NCBI GenBank assembly: GCA_023139205.1
Contig: JAGLOA010000002.1
Span: 27,530-91,529, forward strand
Length of the DNA stretch: 64,000 nucleotides
Source: Candidatus Pacearchaeota archaeon
Lineage (GTDB): Archaea > Nanobdellota > Nanobdellia > Pacearchaeales > GW2011-AR1
Direction: 5' to 3'
Positions 9,948 through 64,000 of the stretch are shown here, in pieces. Within the stretch, counting starts at the first letter, position 1; every line of letters starts with the position of its first letter. Under the pieces are notes generated by a model. The model did no database searches. It had not been told where the DNA came from and saw only the letters and a program-made list of their open reading frames with translations. Position numbers and translations under genes: made by a program.

Positions 9948-10094
9948 TGCGCGGTCCGGGAATTGAACCCGGCTCACCTCGTTTTTGCTTTTTTATTTCG
10001 AGCGAATGCGAGCATTTGCAGGAAAGGTAGTGTCAGGAAAACCCGGGTTTTCCCACATTGGCAACGAGATATTCTACCAATAAACTAACCACGC
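9948..10094 (-). tRNA. tRNA-Gly (anticodon GCC) with a 76-nt intron after position 37
   Basis: Minus-strand fold. Acceptor GCGTGGT/ACCGCGC, anticodon stem TCTCG/CGAGG, loop TTGCCA|intron|A, T arm CCGGG-TTCAATT-CCCGG, discriminator A. The intron holds a GGAAAACCCGGGTTTTCC hairpin. An alternative Trp(CCA) register was rejected because it loses U33. Confidence 0.6.
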
Positions 10095-53393: not shown

Positions 53394-53520
53394 GGCTCCG
53401 TAGCTCAGCCTGGTTAGAGCACTGGACTTTTACGCCGAAAAAATCTCTTTGCGTACTTCGCACAGGAACAAAATTGGTGAAGCAATCCAGGTGTCGAGGG
53501 TTCGAATCCCTTCGGGGCCA
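53394..53520 (+). tRNA. tRNA-Lys (anticodon TTT) with a 52-nt intron (53433..53484) after position 37
   Basis: Acceptor GGCTCCG/CGGGGCC, D arm GCTC-AGCCTGGTTA-GAGC, anticodon stem CTGGA/TCCAG, loop CTTTTA|intron|A, T arm GAGGG-TTCGAAT-CCCTT, discriminator A. Confidence 0.7.
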
Positions 53521-57138: not shown

Positions 57139-60100
57139 ATGATGAATAAAATAGTAAAAAAGAAAGTAAAGGAAATAAAATTTTCTCTTCTTAGTCCAGA
57201 CAAAATCAAAAAACTTTCAACTGCAAAAATAGTAACTCCTGAATTATATAATATTGACGGGTATCCAGTAGATGGGGGATTAATGGATTTAAGGCTTGGT
57301 GCAATAGATCCTGGTGTAAGATGTAGGACTTGCGGAGGAAGATTAAAAGAATGTTTAGGACATCCAGGAAGTATTGATTTAGCGAGACCAATAATGCATT
57401 TAAAATATATTCCTTTGGTAGAACTTGGATTAAGATGTTTTTGTCAGGAATGTAAAAAATTAATGTTGGCGGATAAAGATCTGGAAAAATATACTCCAAG
57501 TCAAAGAGCAAAAAAAGCAAAGGATTCTAAAAAATGTCCTCATTGCGGTGCTGCAAATGAAAAAATTAAGTTAGAGAAACCAACAAACTTTTACCAAGGA
57601 AAAATAAGATTATTTCCTACAGAGATTAGAGAAAAATTAGTTAATATTAAAGATGAAGAATTAGAAAAAATAGGGATAAATCCTGTAAGCTGCAGACCTG
57701 AGTGGGGTATTTTAACTACTCTTTTAGTTCCTCCTGTAACAATAAGACCAAGTATTATTTTAGAATCTGGTGAAAGAAGCGAGGATGATTTAACACATAA
57801 ACTTTCTGATATTATAAGAGCTAATCAAAGACTTTGGGAAAATTTAAATGCAGGTGCTCCGGAAGTTATTATTGAAGATTTATGGGACCTTTTACAATTT
57901 CATGTTACAACTTTCTTTGATAATACTGTTGCTAAAATTCCTCCTGCAAGACATAGAAGCGGTCAGCCATTAAAAACAATCACAGAAAGAATCAAAGGTA
58001 AAGAAGGAAGAATCAGGAAAAACCTTGCTGGTAAAAGAGTAAATTACTCAGGAAGAACTGTAATTTCTCCTGATCCGTTTATAGAAATAAATGAAATTGG
58101 GGTTCCTCATGAAATTGCAACAGTGGTTACTCTGGCTGAAACTGTTACTGATTTAAATATTGAGAAATTAAAAAAATTAGTTGAGAGAGGTGACAAATAT
58201 CCAGGAGCAAATTATATTATAAGGCCTGATGGAAAAAGAAAGAAAATAACTCCTGAACTTAAAGAAGAAGTTATTAATGAACTTGTTCCAGGCTATAAAG
58301 TTGAAAGACATTTACAGGAAGGAGATGTTGTTTTGTTTAACAGACATCCAAGTCTACACAGAGGAAGTTTAATGGCTCACTTTGTGAAAGTTCTTCCAGG
58401 AAGAACATTTAGATTACATCCTGCTGCAGCTTATCCTTATAATGCGGATTTTGACGGAGATGAAATGAATATTCACTCTCCTCAGACAGAAGAAGCAAGA
58501 GCAGAAGCAAAAATTTTACTTGATGTTAAAAAGAATTTAATTTCTCCTAAAAACAACACAAATCTTATTGGGTGTATAGGGGATGCTGTTACAGGAAATT
58601 ATTTATTAGGATTAAATGAATTTTCAAAAGAATCTGCAAATCAAATGATGTATCAAGCTGGAATTGATTGTGAATTTTCAAAGAAAACAATATCAGGAAC
58701 AGAATTATTCTCAGAGATTCTTCCAAAAGCAGATTTCTCAAATGAGTCTATAAAAATAAAAGACGGGAAAATTCTTGAGGGTGAAATAGACAAAACTACT
58801 TTTGGAAGTGAGGACGGAGATTTAATCAAAGAACTTGATAAGGTGGTTGGAAGAGATGAAACTTTTGAAATAATTAAAAAAGCATTTAAACTTGGAACAA
58901 ACTATTTATCAGGAAGAGGGATAACTATTTCTGTTGAAGATTTGGATTTAGATGAAAAAGTTGTACGGGCAGGAGAAGAGATTATTAAAAAAGCTGAAAA
59001 GAAAACAGAAGAAATAATTGATTCTTATGACCAGGGAACTCTTGAAAGAATTCCAGGTAAAACAGAAAAAGAATCCAGAGAAATAAGAATTCTTAAGGTT
59101 TTAAATGAGGTTAGAACCAAGATAGGGGATATTGTAAAGAAAGAATTTCCTAAAAATAATCCAGTAAATTATATGATTAAATCAGGTGGCGGAGGAAATA
59201 TGCTGAATATTACTCAGATGGCTTGTTGTGTTGGTCAGCAGGCATTATGGGGAAAGAGAATTGAAATTGGTTACACCGAAAGAACATTATCTTTTTTTGA
59301 AAAAGGGGATTTGTCTCCAAGGGCAAGAGGATTTATTTCAAGTCCATTCATAAAAGGATTAAGACCAGATGAATTTTTCTTTGGAGCTGTTACAGGAAGA
59401 GACTCGCTTATGGATACTGCATTAAGAACTCCTAAATCAGGTTACTTATATAGAAGATTAGCTAATGCATTTCAGGATATTAGAATTGAATATGACGGAA
59501 CAGTAAGGGATAGCAATAATGAGATAATTCAATATAAATATGGAGATGATGGAAAAGATATTTCGCAGCTTCATAAAGATGGACAAATATGTGCTGGTGA
59601 AGCAATTGGGATTATTACTGCACAATCATTTGGAGAACCTTCAACACAAATGGCATTAAATGTATTTCATTTTGCAGGTGTTGCAGAAATGCAGGTTACT
59701 GCAGGACTTCCAAGAATTATTGAAATCTTTGATGCAAGAAAAAAACCTTCTTCTCCGAAAATGGAGATTTATTTAAATAAAGAATATAATGATGAGAAAA
59801 ATGCTAAAACTTTTGCTGAAAAAATTAAAGAAGTTACTTTAAAAGAAATTGCTTCTGAGATTAATCTTGATTTTAGCGGAAAAAATATTGAAATTAAAAT
59901 TAGTAAAAAAGGATTAAAGCAGACTCACACCACAATAAAAGTTGTTGTTGAAAGATTAAATGACCTTAAATTTAGTGCTAAAGAAAAAGGAGATTCAATT
60001 GTATTAAATGCTTCTGAGTTTAGCTTTAAAGAAATTTATCAGCTTAAGGAAAAATTAAAGAAAACAATTATTTCGGGTGTTAAAGGAGTAAGTCAGGTTT

Positions 60101-60630
60101 TGATTGTTAAAAGAGAAAAAGATTTTGTGATAATTACTCTTGGTTCAAATCTGAAAAAGATAATTGATTTAAAGGAAGTTGATGAAGACAGGATTCTTTC
60201 AAATGATTTGCATGAGGTTGCAGGTGTTTTTGGAATTGAAGCTGCAAGACAATTAATAATTAATGAGATTTATGAAGTGATTAATTCACAGGGATTAAAT
60301 ATTGATATAAGACATCTTAAATTAGTTTCAGATGCAATGACAAATACTGGTGTCGTTAAAGGGGTTACAAGAATGGGAATTATAGCACAAAAATCTTCAA
60401 TCTTGGCAAGAGCTACTTTTGAAACTCCTGGAAAACAATTTGTAAATGCTTCAATAAAAGGAGGCGGGGACAGATTAGCAAGTGTTATAGAAAATATAAT
60501 TCTTAATCAGCCAGTGCCTGTTGGAACTGGGTTGCCTGGTCTTCTTGTTGAAGTTATTGGACCATTGTCTAAGAAAGATTCTGAAAAGAAAACAGCTAAA
60601 ACAGAAGTTGTTGAGAAAACTAATAAGTGA
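57139..60630 (+). CDS. rpoA: RNA polymerase subunit A with the A' and A'' portions fused in one ORF
   Basis: N-terminal zinc motifs. NADFDGDEMN catalytic loop. Bridge helix RDSLMDTALRTPKSGYLYRRL is followed in the same frame by the trigger-loop region AQSFGEPSTQMALNVFHFAGV and the A''-type C-terminus (…ATFETPGKQF…VPVGTGLPGL). 1163 aa. Confidence 0.9.
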   Translation: MMNKIVKKKVKEIKFSLLSPDKIKKLSTAKIVTPELYNIDGYPVDGGLMDLRLGAIDPGVRCRTCGGRLKECLGHPGSIDLARPIMHLKYIPLVELGLRCFCQECKKLMLADKDLEKYTPSQRAKKAKDSKKCPHCGAANEKIKLEKPTNFYQGKIRLFPTEIREKLVNIKDEELEKIGINPVSCRPEWGILTTLLVPPVTIRPSIILESGERSEDDLTHKLSDIIRANQRLWENLNAGAPEVIIEDLWDLLQFHVTTFFDNTVAKIPPARHRSGQPLKTITERIKGKEGRIRKNLAGKRVNYSGRTVISPDPFIEINEIGVPHEIATVVTLAETVTDLNIEKLKKLVERGDKYPGANYIIRPDGKRKKITPELKEEVINELVPGYKVERHLQEGDVVLFNRHPSLHRGSLMAHFVKVLPGRTFRLHPAAAYPYNADFDGDEMNIHSPQTEEARAEAKILLDVKKNLISPKNNTNLIGCIGDAVTGNYLLGLNEFSKESANQMMYQAGIDCEFSKKTISGTELFSEILPKADFSNESIKIKDGKILEGEIDKTTFGSEDGDLIKELDKVVGRDETFEIIKKAFKLGTNYLSGRGITISVEDLDLDEKVVRAGEEIIKKAEKKTEEIIDSYDQGTLERIPGKTEKESREIRILKVLNEVRTKIGDIVKKEFPKNNPVNYMIKSGGGGNMLNITQMACCVGQQALWGKRIEIGYTERTLSFFEKGDLSPRARGFISSPFIKGLRPDEFFFGAVTGRDSLMDTALRTPKSGYLYRRLANAFQDIRIEYDGTVRDSNNEIIQYKYGDDGKDISQLHKDGQICAGEAIGIITAQSFGEPSTQMALNVFHFAGVAEMQVTAGLPRIIEIFDARKKPSSPKMEIYLNKEYNDEKNAKTFAEKIKEVTLKEIASEINLDFSGKNIEIKISKKGLKQTHTTIKVVVERLNDLKFSAKEKGDSIVLNASEFSFKEIYQLKEKLKKTIISGVKGVSQVLIVKREKDFVIITLGSNLKKIIDLKEVDEDRILSNDLHEVAGVFGIEAARQLIINEIYEVINSQGLNIDIRHLKLVSDAMTNTGVVKGVTRMGIIAQKSSILARATFETPGKQFVNASIKGGGDRLASVIENIILNQPVPVGTGLPGLLVEVIGPLSKKDSEKKTAKTEVVEKTNK

Positions 60631-60647
60631 TTTTTTAGAAAACCTTA

Positions 60648-60683
60648 ATTTTTTTTAAATGAATTCTTACTTTATCTTTAAAA
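60648..60683. repeat. 36-bp direct repeat, copy 1 (ATTTTTTTTAAATGAATTCTTACTTTATCTTTAAAA)
   Basis: Exact match to 62521..62556 in the same orientation, 1873 bp apart. Confidence 0.8.
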
Positions 60684-60728
60684 CTGCAGCATAGAAATTT
60701 ATTTAAACTACAATTTACCCAGAAGTTT

Positions 60729-60941
60729 ATGGAAAAACTTGAAGAAAAAACTGAAGAATTTGTTGGAAAAACAAAGGCAATAAATAAAGATTTGGAGAAT
60801 AAAAACATAGAAGCGATAAAGAAATATACTTTGTTTGGAGAGCAATATCTTGAAAAGCAAGTACACACTGGTAAACAATCTATGAAATTTTCAGCAACAG
60901 TATGCACTTATAGAGGAGTACCCTTATTTGATGACTTTTAA
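60729..60941 (+). CDS. small ORF (70 aa) immediately upstream of the ATP-grasp gene, possible precursor peptide
   Basis: Ends …KFSATVCTYRGVPLFDDF. Same strand, 23 nt before the ATP-grasp start. Speculative. Confidence 0.25.
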   Translation: MEKLEEKTEEFVGKTKAINKDLENKNIEAIKKYTLFGEQYLEKQVHTGKQSMKFSATVCTYRGVPLFDDF

Positions 60942-60964
60942 ATTAGGGGGAATTTCTTTTTAAA

Positions 60965-61903
60965 ATGAAAAATGTGTTGATATTAACTTATGATGAAGAT
61001 CCTCATGCAGATTCAGTTAGTAAGTTCTTTGATAAAAAGGGTGTAGAATATTTTAGAGTTGTAACAGAGAATTTAGCAAAAGATTATAAAATAACATTCG
61101 AATCTAACGACTCTCTTTATAAAATTTCAAATAATGAAAAAAAGATATATCTTGATTCTTCTTGGAACATTTGGAATAGAAGGGTAATGAACCCAGATAA
61201 CAAAAAAAATATGCCTAAGTCTTTAATAGATATTGTAGTAGATGAATCTGAAAAAACTTGGGACGGATTACTTGCATCTCATAAAGGGAAAGTTGTAAAT
61301 AGACCCCAAAATCATTTTTATGCTAATAATAAAATAGACCAATTAAAATTTGCATCTGGTAAAATCAAAATCCCAGATACAATAGTCACAAATGACCCTT
61401 CTTGTGTTGAAGAATTTTACGAGAAACATAAGGGAAATATTTGCTTTAAACTACAAAAAGGGACTGTAATAGATGAAAAATTTATTTACACAAACAAAGT
61501 AACAAAAGAACAACTGAAAAATGTTGATTTAGTTTCAAAGCATCCTTGTTTATTTCAAGAATATGTTGACAAGGAATTTGAAGTGAGGGTGGTTGCAACA
61601 GACAAAAATATTACCGGGATAGCAATAGACTCACAAAATTCAGAAATCTCTAAGATAGATTTTAGAAGATATGATTTTGATAATGTAAAATATGAACATA
61701 TAAATTTGCCAGATAATGTGAAGGGATTTTGTTCTTCATTATTGAAAAATTATGGACTTCATTTTGGGGCATTGGACTTTATTTATTCAAAAGAAAGAGG
61801 ATATGTTTTTCTTGAATTAAACCCTAATGGACAATGGCTATGGTTAGAAGAAACATCTGGATATAATCTAACTAAGGAAGTTGCAGAAAATCTAATAAAT
61901 TAA
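60965..61903 (+). CDS. ATP-grasp family ligase (RimK / graspetide-maturase-like size)
   Basis: C-terminal GLHFGALDFIYSKERGYVFLELNPNGQW matches the ATP-grasp Mg/ATP-binding E-x-N loop. 312 aa with a pre-ATP-grasp N-domain. Confidence 0.65.
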   Translation: MKNVLILTYDEDPHADSVSKFFDKKGVEYFRVVTENLAKDYKITFESNDSLYKISNNEKKIYLDSSWNIWNRRVMNPDNKKNMPKSLIDIVVDESEKTWDGLLASHKGKVVNRPQNHFYANNKIDQLKFASGKIKIPDTIVTNDPSCVEEFYEKHKGNICFKLQKGTVIDEKFIYTNKVTKEQLKNVDLVSKHPCLFQEYVDKEFEVRVVATDKNITGIAIDSQNSEISKIDFRRYDFDNVKYEHINLPDNVKGFCSSLLKNYGLHFGALDFIYSKERGYVFLELNPNGQWLWLEETSGYNLTKEVAENLIN

Positions 61904-61904
61904 A

Positions 61905-62399
61905 ATGTTTAAAAATTTAGAAAATAAAATAAAAAATAAAGATTTAATTTTATTTGGAGAAGAACATGGAACAAAAGAAATCCCTGAATTTCTCTTTAAA
62001 TTTTTTTCTGAATTAGCCAAAGAAGAAGAATTTGATGTTTGTTTGGAAATACCAAAAGAGTTTCAAAATAATATAAAGGATTTTTTTAAGCAAAATGAAG
62101 GGGGTCTAAATACAAAAGGATATTTGAATTTAGTAAATGAACTTCAAAAATTAAACATAAAAATATTTTGTATTGATAGTTCAGATTATTCTTCTCAAAA
62201 CAAAAGAGAAAAAGAGATGGCAGAGAATATTCTCGAAGTTTTTAATAAAAAGACATTTGTTATTACAGGAAATATTCATGCTTGTATAAAAAAATTTTTA
62301 ATGTGTGAAATTAATATAATCCCTACTGGATTTTACCTTTCTGAAAAATTAAAAGATAAATTAGTCAGCATAGATCTTTCATTAGAATTAAAAAACTAG
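61905..62399 (+). CDS. Tiki/TraB/ChaN-superfamily-like protein
   Basis: LILFGEEHGTKE and VITGNIHA resemble the two GxxH motifs of the TraB/PrgY/Tiki/ChaN family. 164 aa. Start is 1 nt after the ATP-grasp stop. Confidence 0.4.
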   Translation: MFKNLENKIKNKDLILFGEEHGTKEIPEFLFKFFSELAKEEEFDVCLEIPKEFQNNIKDFFKQNEGGLNTKGYLNLVNELQKLNIKIFCIDSSDYSSQNKREKEMAENILEVFNKKTFVITGNIHACIKKFLMCEINIIPTGFYLSEKLKDKLVSIDLSLELKN

Positions 62400-62504
62400 A
62401 CAAAAAAAAGTTTATATTAGAAAAAGATTTGGATGAAAAAGAGAAGAAAATGACTGAAAAATTCACTCCAACTAAAGAATATAATTATTAAATAGTATCA
62501 AATT

Positions 62505-62735
62505 CTAAGAAAAAACTTTTATTTTTTTTAAATGAATTCTTACTTTATCTTTAAAATCTTTTTTTGAAAATCTTTTTTTTGTTAAAGCTGAACTGCTTTT
62601 TAATTGACTTTCTATTAACTCTTTTTGCTGTTTGAAAAATTTAGGGTTTTCTCTAAGTTTTTCTGCATAAAGCTCTATATAATCTAAATCTGTTTTAGGA
62701 ATTTGTTTTAATTTCATTTTTAATAATAGGTTCAT
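62505..62735 (-). CDS. small hypothetical ORF (76 aa) overlapping the 3' end of the NTase gene
   Basis: Overlaps 62695..63306 by 41 nt. Its 3' end lies inside the repeat. Coding status uncertain. Confidence 0.25.
   Translation of the reverse strand: MNLLLKMKLKQIPKTDLDYIELYAEKLRENPKFFKQQKELIESQLKSSSALTKKRFSKKDFKDKVRIHLKKIKVFS
62521..62556. repeat. 36-bp direct repeat, copy 2
   Basis: Identical to 60648..60683. On the minus strand it encodes the C-terminal FKDKVRIHLKK of small ORF 62505..62735. Confidence 0.8.
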
Positions 62736-63306
62736 ATTCTTTGAATTTTTCTTTTTTTATTATTTCTGAAAAGAAAGTTCTTAAATGTCTGGCATCTCCA
62801 ATATCTTTTTCTCCAGCTAAGATGATTTCTTTGTATAAAATCTCAAATTCTAATGGGGGAATTTTAAAGGCAAAATTCTGTATTTTTATTTTTTGGGGAT
62901 TATTTAATTCAAAATATTTTGCAGGCTTTGATTTATCAACTGATATAAATTCCATATTTGGAAACATTTCTCCTTCTTTTGCAAATCTTATACTATCTCC
63001 ATTTTCTATGTATCTCCACACTTCATCAAGAGTATCTCCCTGATAACACCAAAATTTATTTTTGAATAAATCTTCTAAAAGTAAAGCGAGTTTTGTTTTG
63101 TCTAATTTTGAAACCAAAACATCTACATCTTCTGTTCCTCTTGTTCTTCCAGTAGATATACTTACAAATCCACTTACAATTAAATATTCGGAATGTCTTT
63201 TTAAAACATCTATAAAATCTTTAACAAACAAGTCTAATTTTGTCAGTTCTCTATTGATAATTATAGTATTCTCTTTAATAGAATAAGCTTTGTTTTGGTT
63301 GCTCAT
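62695..63306 (-). CDS. minimal Pol-beta nucleotidyltransferase (MNT-like)
   Basis: SGFVSISTGRTRGTEDVDVLV is the GS-x9-DxD motif. 203 aa. Confidence 0.55.
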   Translation of the reverse strand: MSNQNKAYSIKENTIIINRELTKLDLFVKDFIDVLKRHSEYLIVSGFVSISTGRTRGTEDVDVLVSKLDKTKLALLLEDLFKNKFWCYQGDTLDEVWRYIENGDSIRFAKEGEMFPNMEFISVDKSKPAKYFELNNPQKIKIQNFAFKIPPLEFEILYKEIILAGEKDIGDARHLRTFFSEIIKKEKFKEYEPIIKNEIKTNS

Positions 63307-63378
63307 TTTTAATTAAGGGGGGAAGTTTTTAAGTAGTTTTTGTTTTTGGGAAGACTAATAAGTGATTTTTAAAAAAGA

Positions 63379-64000
63379 TTAATTTTCCAATAGCCATTTC
63401 CAGACAGGTTTAACAAATATTTTTTTATTGTCTTTTTGTAAATTGTATTCCTGGTCTTTAGTTAAAATAATTCCCTGTTTTAATTTGAATTCTTCTAAAG
63501 CAGTTGTTAATCCTCTAATTTCTCTTTCTTTATTTTCAGAAGTTAATTCCCAGCAAACCTGTATTGCCTGTATTATTTTTTTTTGTTTTGATAAAATAAA
63601 ATCACATTCATATTTATTTTCAAAATAATTTATTTCAAAATTTTCATTTATGTTATTAAAAACTAAATTTTCAAGGAGCCATCCTTTATCTTTTGTAAAT
63701 TTCAGAGAAATCACTGAAACAAATCCATTATCCAATACATATGGTTTTTTTTCAGATTTTATTTGTTTTTTTAAACTATAATCAAATTTATTTATTATTT
63801 GAATAAAATACGTTTCAATAAGATGGTTAATAAATTTCTTCGTGGTGTGCGGGCTTTTTATCCCCAATATTTTGTTTAGATTATTATAATTAAATTTGTT
63901 TGCCAGATTAGTTATCAGATATTGGTATAATTCTCTAAGCTGGATTATATTTTTAACATCATATCTTACAATTATATCTTTGTTTATTATATCCTCATAG
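63379..64000 (-). CDS. AAA+ ATPase of the COG1373/DUF4143 type, C-terminal part; the 5' end runs off the window
   Basis: The frame stays open from 64000 down to 63379. …LNKILGIKSPHTTKKFINHLIETYFIQII… (HTH-like) and …NKYECDFIL… resemble the DUF4143 C-terminal domain of COG1373 ATPases. The listed ORF start (63867) is a TTG inside this longer open frame. Confidence 0.5.
   Translation of the reverse strand, partial: YEDIINKDIIVRYDVKNIIQLRELYQYLITNLANKFNYNNLNKILGIKSPHTTKKFINHLIETYFIQIINKFDYSLKKQIKSEKKPYVLDNGFVSVISLKFTKDKGWLLENLVFNNINENFEINYFENKYECDFILSKQKKIIQAIQVCWELTSENKEREIRGLTTALEEFKLKQGIILTKDQEYNLQKDNKKIFVKPVWKWLLEN

What the first reader, a model, noticed from the sequence alone, without database searches (positions are those of the whole stretch)
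60648..62556. 36-bp perfect direct repeats flanking an ATP-grasp / Tiki-like cassette inserted after the rpo operon
ATTTTTTTTAAATGAATTCTTACTTTATCTTTAAAA occurs at 60648..60683 and 62521..62556. Between the copies lie a 70-aa ORF ending in a T/D-rich tail (…SATVCTYRGVPLFDDF), a 312-aa ATP-grasp ligase, and a 164-aa TraB/Tiki/ChaN-like protein. The downstream copy overlaps the 3' end of a small minus-strand ORF, which is consistent with duplication of a target or att sequence on insertion. The position immediately after rpoA, where archaea usually carry rpl30e-nusA-rps12, also argues for an insertion. The small ORF plus ATP-grasp arrangement resembles graspetide-type (microviridin-like) RiPP loci. 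Alternatively it could be a ligase plus protease-like modification or immunity pair.
Basis: partly seen in the sequence, partly recalled or inferred. Interest (0 to 1): 0.55.

Follow-up and report, generated by a model that had tools for sequence, protein, structure and literature searches.

The report
Mobile graspetide peptide cassette in archaeon
A small three-gene unit that very probably makes a cross-linked (graspetide-type) peptide has been inserted just after the RNA polymerase genes of a tiny DPANN archaeon; the insertion duplicated the tail of the neighbouring gene, and the same peptide family, not described in the papers I could search, turns up in many related archaea.

Summary
The 36-bp repeat is perfect, occurs only twice, and extends to 45 nt at 96% identity. 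The repeat is the last ~15 codons of the minus-strand 76-aa gene, so it derives from the target site. A second, older repeat pair encloses it: a 46-nt copy of the rpoA 3' end, 85% identical.

Between the inner copies lies a complete graspetide cassette. It has a 70-aa precursor, an MdnB/MdnC-type ATP-grasp ligase and a TIKI-superfamily hydrolase with an intact 2His/2Glu motif. The precursor belongs to a family of about 160 sequences with a near-invariant core, [ST]x[TS]xCT[WF][RK]G[IV]PxIDD[WFY]-COOH.

The same three genes occur in unrelated genomic contexts. Sixteen of 17 related species carry nusA-rps12-rps7-EF2 directly after rpoA, and none of the 17 carries the cassette there. Two other loci of the family have 166-nt and 290-nt repeats of unrelated sequence, also made from a neighbouring gene's 3' end. 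Their copies differ mostly at synonymous sites.

No recombinase gene is nearby, and no empty site was found. I read this as a new graspetide group that moves by insertion with long target duplication, probably through recombination. The chemistry is inferred, not shown.

The parts
57139..60630 (+). rpoA, a single 1163-aa ORF holding Rpb1 domains 1-5. It is the last conserved gene before the accessory region.
   Evidence: ORF; Pfam domains listed.
60607..60652 (.). Outer repeat, copy A1: the last 7 codons of rpoA, its stop codon and 22 nt downstream.
   Evidence: 46 nt, 85% identical to 63342-63386. 30/35 ungapped matches against at most 26/35 in 300 shuffles.
60639..60683 (.). Inner repeat, copy B1 (perfect core 60648-60683). 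It is a detached copy of the 3' end of the 76-aa gene. On the + strand it carries a T8 run directly after the rpoA stop codon.
   Evidence: The minus-strand translation ends ...FKDKVRIHLKKIKVF. A terminator role for the T8 run is inference only.
60684..60728 (+). 5' region of the cassette, with a TATA-like TTTATTTAAA at 60698-60707, about 27 nt before the precursor ATG.
   Evidence: Read directly. Promoter function is inferred, not tested.
60729..60941 (+). Graspetide precursor, 70 aa. The leader motif is Y33-T-L-F-G-E-Q-Y-L-E-K43. The core is S55-A-T57-V-C59-T60-Y-R62-G-V-P65-L-F-D68-D69-F70.
   Evidence: 98 relatives at 90% clustering and 102 clusters at 50%. Position statistics come from 160 sequences. 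The gene sits upstream of the ligase in every locus where the upstream DNA is held.
60965..61903 (+). ATP-grasp peptide maturase of the MdnB/MdnC (MvdC/MvdD) type, 312 aa.
   Evidence: PF21068 at 8e-12. TIGR04185 at 1e-62, TIGR04187 at 4e-54. PDB 5ig8 at 1e-40, plus 7m4s, 7mgv, 5ig9. 836 homologues with E<=1e-10.
61905..62399 (+). TIKI/ChaN/erythromycin-esterase-fold hydrolase, 164 aa, with the 2His/2Glu motif E19, H21, E48, H125. Its start is 1 nt after the ligase stop.
   Evidence: PF04187 at 3e-7, above the curated cutoff. Invariant residues. Model pLDDT 92.9. Fold matches to RRSP 6a8j/6a7h, Bcr135 3b55, ChaN 2g5g and EreC 6xcq. RRSP catalytic motif from PMC6254334.
62512..62556 (.). Inner repeat, copy B2 (perfect core 62521-62556). 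It is the 3' end of the intact 76-aa gene.
62505..62735 (-). 76-aa gene of unknown function. It is the target gene whose tail is duplicated.
   Evidence: ORF. Called as a gene in all five distinct contigs that hold the region. No family match in Pfam, NCBIfam, PADLOC or PHROGs.
62695..63306 (-). 203-aa gene of unknown function that overlaps the 76-aa gene by 41 nt. A GRTRGTEDVDVLV stretch resembles a nucleotidyltransferase motif by eye only.
   Evidence: ORF. No significant family or PDB match. The single-sequence model is unusable, pLDDT 45.6.
63342..63386 (.). Outer repeat, copy A2: a diverged copy of the rpoA 3' end and stop codon. It lies between the 203-aa gene start and the stop of the AAA ATPase gene.
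63379..64000 (-). 3' part of a 421-aa AAA_14/DUF4143 ATPase that runs off the window. It is the first gene of a defence-island-like stretch.
   Evidence: Gene call and Pfam. PADLOC PDC-S01 at 4.8e-109.

Best explanation
The region 60684-62511 is a self-contained three-gene graspetide cassette that was inserted after rpoA in a Candidatus Pacearchaeota (DPANN) genome.

How the cassette most likely works (inferred). The 70-aa precursor is bound through its conserved leader motif (YxxFxEQYLEK) by the pre-ATP-grasp domain of the MdnB/MdnC-type ligase. The ligase then uses ATP to activate the side chains of the invariant Asp68-Asp69 pair. These are joined to conserved Thr/Ser hydroxyls (Thr60, Thr57 and perhaps Ser55), forming two or possibly three omega-ester rings around the W/Y-R-G-V-P turn. 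The co-translated TIKI-fold hydrolase, with its 2His/2Glu site, most likely removes the leader. By analogy with microviridins and plesiocin, the product is probably a protease-inhibitor-like peptide that presents the conserved Arg/Lys.

How the repeats arose. They are footprints of two nested insertions at the rpoA stop codon. First, the 76-aa/203-aa gene pair arrived and the last 46 nt of the rpoA region was duplicated. Later the cassette arrived inside the tail of the 76-aa gene, and 45-52 nt of that tail was duplicated, which kept the gene intact. This is insertion with long target duplication. No dedicated recombinase is present. The most likely route is recombination with incoming, possibly circular, DNA that carried a piece of the homologous neighbouring gene.
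For: Shown by tool results:
- Ligase family.
- Precursor conservation. Relative to the DD pair, position -11 is T/S in 100% of 160 sequences, -9 is C/S in 100%, -8 is T/S in 97%, -13 is S/T in 86%, -6 is R/K in 94% and -3 is P in 96%. 136 of 160 end one aromatic residue after DD.
- The small ORF-ligase order holds wherever the upstream DNA is held, and the TIKI-like gene follows the ligase in most but not all loci.
- TIKI fold and invariant E19/H21/E48/H125.
- The operon is tight, with 23-nt and 1-nt gaps.
- Insertion: 16 of 17 related species have nusA within 1.4 kb after rpoA, and none of the 17 has any gene of this region. nusA, rps12, rps7 and EF2 are absent from the window and from the next 7.9 kb held.
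- The closest cassette (L040, 80% nt identity) shares only 60823-62381 and has different flanks.
- Order of events: B contains 14 nt of A-derived sequence (60639-60652), and B is 96% identical against 85% for A.
- Generality: L012 has a 166-nt repeat (92%) and L049 a 290-nt repeat (93%) flanking the same cassette family. Each is made from a neighbouring gene's 3' end and is unrelated in sequence to the others.
- The copies differ with pN/pS of 0.19 and 0.18. Pooled, 14 of 34 differences are nonsynonymous, P about 9e-4 against a model of one neutral copy plus one selected copy. This fits two once-functional alleles brought together by recombination.

Literature: insertion with long target duplication is defined for restriction-modification genes, including 46-bp repeats that overlap gene 3' ends (PMC2853133). 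Tiki/TraB peptidases have been noted in CPR graspetide loci (PMC8939145).
Against: - No product chemistry has been observed. Which hydroxyls pair with which carboxylates, and how many rings form, is a guess.
- The ligase scores fall below the curated cutoffs of TIGR04185, TIGR04184 and TIGR04187, so it is not an equivalog of any named maturase.
- The cassette has no transporter gene.
- The TIKI-like gene is missing directly after the ligase in some family loci (L045, L047, L048, L053).
- No empty site was found. The six contigs that carry the exact 76-aa protein, and the nine that carry the exact ligase, all show the same arrangement. The nearest other species lack the whole region.
- Only 3 of about 12 independent loci show clear flanking repeats.
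- The pN/pS argument rests on 34 differences, none of them from the window itself, where the repeats are too short to test.
Confidence: 0.75

Rival explanations
1. The repeats arose by classic in-situ target duplication. A staggered double-strand break, or template switching at the insertion point, was filled in. Both copies were therefore identical at birth and no donor-derived homologous flank was involved.
For: The window repeat is nearly perfect, 36/36 in the core, and is short for homologous recombination. This is how the long-target-duplication literature frames the events.
Against: In the two longer examples the copies differ mainly at synonymous sites, pN/pS about 0.19. That is unexpected if one copy had been a dead fragment since the event.
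Confidence: 0.25
2. The repeat is the att site of an integrative element moved by a site-specific recombinase encoded elsewhere, acting in trans.
For: Direct repeats that overlap a gene's 3' end are typical of att sites. In L012 a tRNA-Cys gene lies about 185 nt beyond the right repeat.
Against: No integrase or transposase domain is found in any gene within about 10 kb on either side of the cassette. The repeats at the three loci have different lengths (45, 166 and 290 nt) and unrelated sequences. The inserted segments carry different extra genes: none in the window, a ParE toxin pair in L012, and a Nudix gene plus an ABC ATPase fragment in L049.
Confidence: 0.07
3. The TIKI-fold protein is not the leader peptidase. 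It is instead an esterase that opens the lactone rings, serving self-protection or turnover, or it makes a further modification.
For: The fold is shared with erythromycin esterases, which hydrolyse a macrolactone. The same His-Glu chemistry serves both esters and peptide bonds (PMC6254334). Makarova et al. leave this open for an erythromycin-esterase homologue in other graspetide loci.
Against: The best structural matches are to the endopeptidase RRSP. The cassette has no other protease. TIKI and TraB/PrgY relatives act on peptides (my own knowledge of these families).
Confidence: 0.3
4. The duplicated segment is kept because it works as a terminator, and its duplication says nothing about insertion. 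The T8 run would end transcription of rpoA at copy B1 and of the cassette at copy B2.
For: Both copies sit directly after + strand genes and contain TTTTTTTT. Oligo-T tracts terminate archaeal transcription (general knowledge).
Against: This does not explain why 36 bases beyond the T run are identical. Those bases are the coding tail of a minus-strand gene. It also does not explain the outer rpoA-tail repeat.
Confidence: 0.1
5. The arrangement is an assembly artefact, a chimeric join at a shared k-mer.
For: Short Logan contigs start and stop inside the repeat (L005 covers window 60654-62550).
Against: Four separately assembled metagenome samples plus the NCBI MAG (five distinct contigs, fetched as eight loci) span both copies and both flanks with 0 mismatches. 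A break at a repeat is expected behaviour for k=31 assemblies.
Confidence: 0.03

Closest known systems
Graspetide (omega-ester peptide) gene clusters: microviridin MdnA-E, plesiocin, thuringinin, chryseoviridin
   Same: The ligase is an MdnB/MdnC-type ATP-grasp with the pre-ATP-grasp domain. A small precursor gene lies immediately upstream, with a conserved leader motif and a C-terminal core that holds conserved Thr/Ser and a pair of acidic residues. The nested TxxT...DD layout recalls the TTxxxxEE hairpin of plesiocin (my own knowledge).
   Different: The core motif [ST]x[TS]xCT[WF][RK]G[IV]PxIDD[WFY]-COOH matches no named group that I know of. It has no cross-linking Lys, it has an invariant Cys/Ser, and the peptide almost always ends one residue after DD. 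The cassette lacks the GNAT, ABC transporter, methyltransferase and SPASM partners of other clusters and instead has a TIKI-fold hydrolase. The hosts are DPANN archaea.
CPR (Patescibacteria) graspetide branches 1 and 2 of Makarova et al. 2022 (PMC8939145)
   Same: These occur in ultra-small symbiotic prokaryotes. Branch 1 has the core signature TxxxTx(6-10)Dx(1-4)D. Tiki/TraB-family peptidases are noted in branch 2 loci and proposed to cleave the leader.
   Different: That study describes bacteria. The only DPANN-like entries I found in its tables, archaeon GW2011_AR18 (343 and 312 aa), are listed under the thuringinin branch without a precursor. Its leader signature Phhx(1,2)h is not the YSTFAEMYLEKP motif seen here.
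Insertion with long target duplication, described for restriction-modification genes (Nobusato 2000; Furuta 2010, PMC2853133)
   Same: A short gene block is inserted without any mobility gene. It is flanked by direct repeats longer than 30 bp that are unique in the genome and derive from the target, often overlapping a gene's 3' end. Published examples include 46-bp repeats.
   Different: The cargo here is a peptide-biosynthesis cassette, not a DNA-cutting system. The host is an archaeon, and no archaeal case passed their screen. The defining empty-site comparison is missing here.
TIKI-superfamily hydrolases: Tiki, TraB/PrgY, ChaN, erythromycin esterases, RRSP
   Same: The fold matches (TM-score 0.64-0.77 normalised to the query). 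The GExH...E...GxxH motif, the 2His/2Glu set, is conserved.
   Different: The protein is a minimal 164-225 aa single domain with no signal peptide or membrane segment visible in the sequence. The window's sub-lineage lacks the C-terminal ~40 residues, ending in PCSFL, that most family members have.

Membership tests
Graspetide (ATP-grasp-modified RiPP) gene cluster | An ATP-grasp ligase of the MdnB/MdnC clade with the leader-binding pre-ATP-grasp domain | tested here: met
   PF21068 scores 45.7 bits against a cutoff of 27. The best NCBIfam matches are all graspetide maturases. All significant PDB relatives are graspetide ligases. The scores fall below the curated cutoffs of TIGR04185, TIGR04184 and TIGR04187, so this is a distinct subfamily.
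Graspetide (ATP-grasp-modified RiPP) gene cluster | An adjacent precursor gene with a conserved leader and a core that holds conserved hydroxyl or amine donors and acidic acceptors | tested here: met
   160 precursors have invariant DD and T/S at -11 and -8. The small ORF lies upstream of the ligase in all loci where the upstream DNA is held.
Graspetide (ATP-grasp-modified RiPP) gene cluster | Side-chain omega-ester or omega-amide macrocycles in the mature product | not testable with these tools
   This needs expression and mass spectrometry.
Microviridin subfamily | Core motif TxKxPSDx(E/D)(E/D), two ligases (MdnB and MdnC), a GNAT acetyltransferase and an ABC transporter | tested here: not met
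   The core is TVCTYRGVPLFDDF. There is a single ligase and no GNAT or transporter gene among the cassette ORFs.
RimK / LysX housekeeping ligases | Best match to the rimK_fam or LysX models, and an acceptor protein with a C-terminal Glu tail | tested here: not met
   rimK_fam scores 50.6 bits against a cutoff of 143. LysX scores 28.4 against 276. MvdC scores 212.
Insertion with long target duplication | Direct repeats longer than 30 bp flanking an insert shorter than 20 kb, unique in the genome, with no mobility gene inside or beside the insert | tested here: met
   The 45-nt repeat flanks a 1.83-kb insert and the 46-nt repeat flanks 2.7 kb. Each has two copies only in 72 kb. No integrase or transposase domain is present. 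The rest of the genome was not available.
Insertion with long target duplication | A related genome with an empty site that holds a single copy of the repeated sequence | tested here: inconclusive
   No variant exists among the nine contigs read for the exact ligase and six read for the exact 76-aa protein, all from one population. The 17 related species lack the 76-aa gene altogether.
Integrase-mediated integrative element | A site-specific recombinase gene and a conserved att core shared by different insertions | tested here: not met
   No recombinase gene lies within about 10 kb on either side of the cassette. The repeats at the window, L012 and L049 are unrelated.
TIKI / ChaN / erythromycin-esterase superfamily | An alpha/beta fold with a parallel sheet core and the 2His/2Glu (GxxH...E...GxxH) motif | tested here: met
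   PF04187 scores 31 bits against a cutoff of 27.7. Model pLDDT is 92.9. Foldseek finds RRSP, Bcr135, ChaN and EreC. E19, H21, E48 and H125 are invariant in 37 sequences.

The most novel reading that the evidence does not exclude
This is a previously undescribed graspetide family spread across DPANN archaea, with at least 100 precursor clusters at 50% identity. Its minimal precursor-ligase-TIKI hydrolase cassette is itself a mobile unit. It spreads between genomes, possibly also into CPR and Bacteroidota, by recombination that drags along a piece of the neighbouring gene.

Its chemistry may go beyond known graspetides. The precursors carry three or four conserved nucleophiles (S/T at -13, T/S at -11, C/S at -9, T at -8) but only two Asp residues. 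The peptide ends exactly one residue after DD in 85% of members, while the other 15% carry a third Asp (DDxD). A ring closed onto the C-terminal alpha-carboxylate, or a thioester through the invariant Cys/Ser, is therefore not excluded.
Probability: 0.2. Interest if true: 0.7.

Novelty: new variant of a known kind. Interest (0 to 1): 0.5.

Why it matters
DPANN archaea are minimal-genome symbionts, and their means of interacting with hosts and competitors are largely unknown. A conserved, compact and apparently mobile cassette for a cross-linked peptide gives a concrete, clonable candidate. Only three genes are needed, totalling about 1.7 kb.

For work on ribosomally made peptides, the cassette offers a new core motif and a TIKI-fold partner whose role, leader peptidase or lactone esterase, can be tested directly.

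For genome dynamics, it extends insertion with long target duplication to a non-restriction cargo and to archaea. The excess of synonymous differences between repeat copies gives a testable hint at a recombinational mechanism.

Tried and rejected
1. I first thought the 164-aa TIKI gene had been truncated by the insertion junction, because it lacks about 42 C-terminal residues found in most homologues. I rejected this because the closest relative in a different context (P0220, 73% identical) is also 165 aa. The short form is a lineage trait.
2. Empty-site search. Exact look-ups of the ligase and of the 76-aa protein found only the same arrangement. The genome scan with the RpoA C-terminus found 18 related loci, none carrying any gene of the region.
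3. I searched for further copies of the rpoA tail along the downstream island, as a test of serial integration. None was found.
4. Identity of the 76-aa and 203-aa proteins. Pfam, NCBIfam, PADLOC, PHROGs and PDB sequence searches found nothing significant. The single-sequence AlphaFold model of the 203-aa protein was too poor to use (pLDDT 45.6).
5. Viral vehicle. Only distant ligases, 27-28% identical, occur in IMG/VR.
6. Shared neighbours among cassette loci, which would reveal a donor arrangement. None was found.
7. tRNA or other RNA identity of the L012 repeat. None; there is only a tRNA-Cys gene nearby.
8. Literature. Within the searchable library no paper links graspetides with DPANN beyond one citation in PMC8939145. 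Subscription-only papers, such as the 2021 graspetide classification in ACS Chem Biol, could not be checked.
Full report
**Observation.** The 36-base sequence is present exactly at 60648-60683 and 62521-62556. It occurs nowhere else in the window even with three mismatches allowed, and shuffles predict zero copies. Repeat finding and BLAST extend it to 45 nt at 96% identity, 60639-60683 versus 62512-62556. Allowing a 2-nt indel, the similarity reaches the stop codon of the minus-strand reading frame in both copies. The three plus-strand ORFs are as described.

The repeat is coding sequence. The downstream copy is the last ~15 codons (FKDKVRIHLKKIKVF) of the 76-aa minus-strand gene 62505-62735. 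The upstream copy encodes the same residues at the end of a spurious ORF.

A second repeat pair was not in the finding. The rpoA tail with its stop codon, 60607-60652, recurs at 63342-63386 at 85% identity over 46 nt. It matches 30 of 35 ungapped bases, while the best match in 300 Markov-shuffled 72-kb sequences was 26. The layout is therefore nested: rpoA tail (A1), 76-aa tail (B1), cassette, 76-aa tail (B2) with the intact 76-aa and 203-aa genes, rpoA tail copy (A2), then an AAA ATPase gene.

The source is contig DAOWGE010000015.1 of GCA_030637545.1, named Candidatus Pacearchaeota archaeon. Eight fetched loci carry the region with zero mismatches over 2950 nt. They come from five distinct contigs, four separately assembled samples plus the MAG. 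Short k=31 contigs break inside the repeat, as expected.

**What the cassette is: the ligase.** The 312-aa protein has the MvdD pre-ATP-grasp domain (PF21068, 8e-12) followed by a RimK-like ATP-grasp domain. Against NCBIfam it scores 212 bits on MvdC, 184 on the SAV_5884 maturase family, 183 on MvdD and 111 on the grasp-with-spasm maturase. It scores only 51 on rimK_fam and 28 on LysX. All these scores are below the curated cutoffs, so it is a separate subfamily of graspetide maturases. Its only solved relatives are graspetide ligases: MdnB 5ig8 (1e-40), AMdnB, CdnC, MdnC, 9bou and PsnB.

**What the cassette is: the precursor.** The ligase has 836 homologues at E<=1e-10. The closest, at 46-83% identity, are named Pacearchaeota, Nanoarchaeota or 'archaeon', with single MAGs named Patescibacteria and Lutibacter. 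In every locus fetched with upstream DNA, a 55-91-aa ORF precedes the ligase. These ORFs form a tight family: 98 clusters at 90% identity by the indexed search and 102 clusters at 50% identity by the exhaustive profile search. The consensus is ...YSTFAEMYLEKP..QAGF[ST]xT[VI]CTWRG[IV]PT[IV]DDW.

Over 160 sequences anchored on the terminal DD, the conserved positions are as follows:
- -13 is S/T in 86%.
- -11 is T/S in 100%.
- -9 is C/S in 100%.
- -8 is T/S in 97%.
- -6 is R/K in 94%.
- -3 is P in 96%.
- -2 is Thr in only 72%. The window has Leu there.

136 of the 160 end one aromatic residue after DD, and 23 continue as DDxD. In the window peptide the relevant residues are S55, T57, C59, T60, R62, P65, D68, D69 and F70. 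This is the anatomy of a graspetide precursor: a conserved leader motif, then a short core with hydroxyl donors and an acidic pair.

**What the cassette is: the hydrolase.** The 164-aa protein passes the Pfam threshold for the ChaN/Tiki family PF04187. Its 37-sequence alignment has invariant G18, E19, H21, G22, K24, E25, P27, E48, G122 and H125. The AlphaFold model is confident, with pLDDT 92.9. Foldseek finds the TIKI-family endopeptidase RRSP (6a8j, 6a7h), Bcr135 (3b55), ChaN (2g5g), EreC (6xcq) and the Pasteurella toxin C domains. RRSP uses a 2His/2Glu motif (E-x-H, E, H) shared with active TIKI and erythromycin-esterase enzymes (PMC6254334). E19, H21, E48 and H125 fit that motif.

Most family members are 204-229 aa and end in ...PCSFL. 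The window protein lacks that tail, but so does its closest relative in another context, so the short form is inherited. The TIKI gene follows the ligase in most but not all family loci.

**Mechanism of the cassette (inferred).** By analogy with microviridin and plesiocin biosynthesis (established knowledge of these families), the ligase should bind the leader motif. It should phosphorylate the Asp68/Asp69 carboxylates and let Thr60 and Thr57 (possibly Ser55) attack, giving nested lactone rings around the aromatic-R/K-G-[IV]-P turn (Y-R-G-V-P in the window peptide). The TIKI-fold enzyme is the only candidate for leader removal. Makarova et al. made the same inference for Tiki/TraB genes in CPR graspetide loci. 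A lactone-esterase role is a live alternative because erythromycin esterases share the fold. The conserved Arg/Lys next to a cross-linked Thr suggests a protease-inhibitor loop. No transporter gene is present, so the site of action is unknown.

**Is it an insertion?** A scan of one genome per species with the RpoA C-terminus returned 18 loci at 71-84% identity. In 16 of the 17 loci with downstream sequence, rpoA is followed within 1.4 kb by nusA (KH domain, 138 aa), rps12, rps7 and EF-2. Four of them (L015, L020, L028, L030) have an unrelated extra ORF squeezed between rpoA and nusA, so this junction is a recurrent insertion point. None contains the cassette, the 76-aa or 203-aa genes, or the downstream ATPases.

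In the source genome, nusA, rps12, rps7 and EF-2 are absent from the window and from the next 7.9 kb held. That stretch instead holds two AAA_14/DUF4143 ATPases (PADLOC PDC-S01, 5e-109), a PMT_2 glycosyltransferase and Pol-beta nucleotidyltransferase pairs (PDC-M05A). The closest cassette (L040) is 80% identical in DNA only over window 60823-62381 and has entirely different neighbours. The cassette is therefore foreign to this site, and the repeat is local sequence rather than part of the cassette.

**How the repeats arose.** B1 overlaps A1 by 14 nt (60639-60652), and those bases are also similar in A2. B is 96% identical and A is 85%. The simplest order is this: the 76-aa/203-aa pair entered at the rpoA stop codon with duplication of the rpoA tail, and the cassette later entered 15 codons inside the 76-aa gene with duplication of that tail. 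Before the second event, the stop codons of rpoA (60628-60630) and of the 76-aa gene (60635-60637) were 4 nt apart.

No integrase or transposase domain occurs within about 10 kb on either side of the cassette. I compared left and right flanks on the same strand in about 12 independent loci of the family. Two more clear cases emerged:
- L012/L013 has 166 nt at 92% identity around precursor, ligase, TIKI gene and a ParE toxin pair.
- L049 has 290 nt at 93% identity around an ABC-ATPase fragment, precursor, ligase, TIKI gene and a Nudix gene. The right copy is the 3' end of an intact 508-aa minus-strand gene, exactly as in the window.

L047 has a weak 35-nt case. The three repeats are unrelated in sequence, so they are not a common att site.

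This matches 'insertion with long target duplication', defined for restriction-modification genes. The criteria are repeats over 30 bp, an insert under 20 kb and no mobility genes. Published examples include 46-bp repeats that overlap gene 3' ends, and no archaeal case passed that screen (PMC2853133).

The two long repeats allow a further test. Their copies differ with pN/pS of 0.19 (12 synonymous and 9 nonsynonymous differences) and 0.18 (8 and 5). If one copy had been a dead fragment since an in-situ duplication, about 69% of differences should be nonsynonymous. The observed 14 of 34 has P about 9e-4. This favours two alleles that diverged while functional and were then joined. That would be recombination between the resident gene and incoming DNA that carried the cassette plus a piece of the orthologous neighbour. 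The sample is small, and the window's own repeats are too short to test. I give this sub-mechanism about 0.4-0.5.

**Comparison with what is known.** The locus is a graspetide cluster by the two testable defining features; the product chemistry is untestable here. It is not a microviridin cluster: the core motif differs, there is a single ligase, and there is no GNAT or ABC transporter. The closest published parallel is the CPR graspetide branches of Makarova et al. 2022. There, branch 1 cores follow TxxxTx(6-10)Dx(1-4)D, and Tiki/TraB peptidases appear in branch 2. In that paper's tables the only DPANN-like ligases I found (archaeon GW2011_AR18) sit in the thuringinin branch with no precursor assigned. 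No paper in the searchable library joins graspetides with DPANN archaea. Subscription literature could not be checked.

**Verdict.** This is a new group within a known class, carried on a small unit with a documented but poorly understood mode of insertion. Interest is moderate.

Noticed in passing
window 57139-60630: rpoA is one 1163-aa ORF that holds Rpb1 domains 1 to 5, whereas archaeal RpoA is usually split into A' and A''. The related species matched contiguously over the C-terminal 449 aa, so the fusion seems to be clade-wide.
   Followed up: partly
window 53394-53520 (+) and 9948-10094 (-): Rfam finds two long tRNA matches of 127 and 147 nt that ARAGORN did not report. They are probably intron-containing archaeal tRNAs. 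One lies just upstream of rpoH and rpoB.
   Followed up: no
L015, L020, L028, L030, directly after the rpoA match; also L021: In four related species an unrelated extra ORF (156, 111, 110 or 406 aa) sits between rpoA and nusA. L021 has other genes in the 1.6 kb available. The rpoA 3' junction looks like a recurrent insertion hotspot in this clade.
   Followed up: partly
L001 12415-19649 (window 63379 onward): The DNA after the cassette resembles a defence or toxin-antitoxin island. It has two AAA_14/DUF4143 ATPases (PADLOC PDC-S01, 4.8e-109) and two Pol-beta nucleotidyltransferase genes (PDC-M05A), each with a small partner gene.
   Followed up: partly
L002 and L037 versus L001, L003 and L036 (L001 13905-15311): In two samples the 468-aa PMT_2 glycosyltransferase gene is replaced by a 230-aa ORF with a gap in gene calls. 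This is either population heterogeneity inside the island or a scaffolding gap.
   Followed up: no
P0287 (778 aa), P0299 (713 aa), P0316 (640 aa): Large proteins with 7-9 tandem repeats, each containing G-Y-x-x-F-A-E-K-Y-[FY]-E, match the leader motif of the precursor profile. Whether this is chance resemblance or a related recognition motif is unknown.
   Followed up: no
L040 1-3146: The closest relative of the cassette sits among short same-strand ORFs, including Zn-ribbon-like and thioredoxin-like proteins. The context looks plasmid- or virus-like, but the contig is only 3.1 kb.
   Followed up: no
P0261, P0265, P0303-P0322 and others (23 of 160 precursors): A sub-family of precursors continues past DD as DDxD... 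(for example IDDADELI and IDDPDWDDR) and often has PTFC instead of [ST]xTxC. This gives a third acidic residue where the main family has the C-terminal carboxylate.
   Followed up: partly
L012 8542-8612 (-): A tRNA-Cys gene lies about 185 nt beyond the right copy of the 166-nt repeat that bounds the cassette in this locus. The MAG is labelled Patescibacteria, so the cassette may have crossed domains, or the contig may be mis-binned.
   Followed up: no
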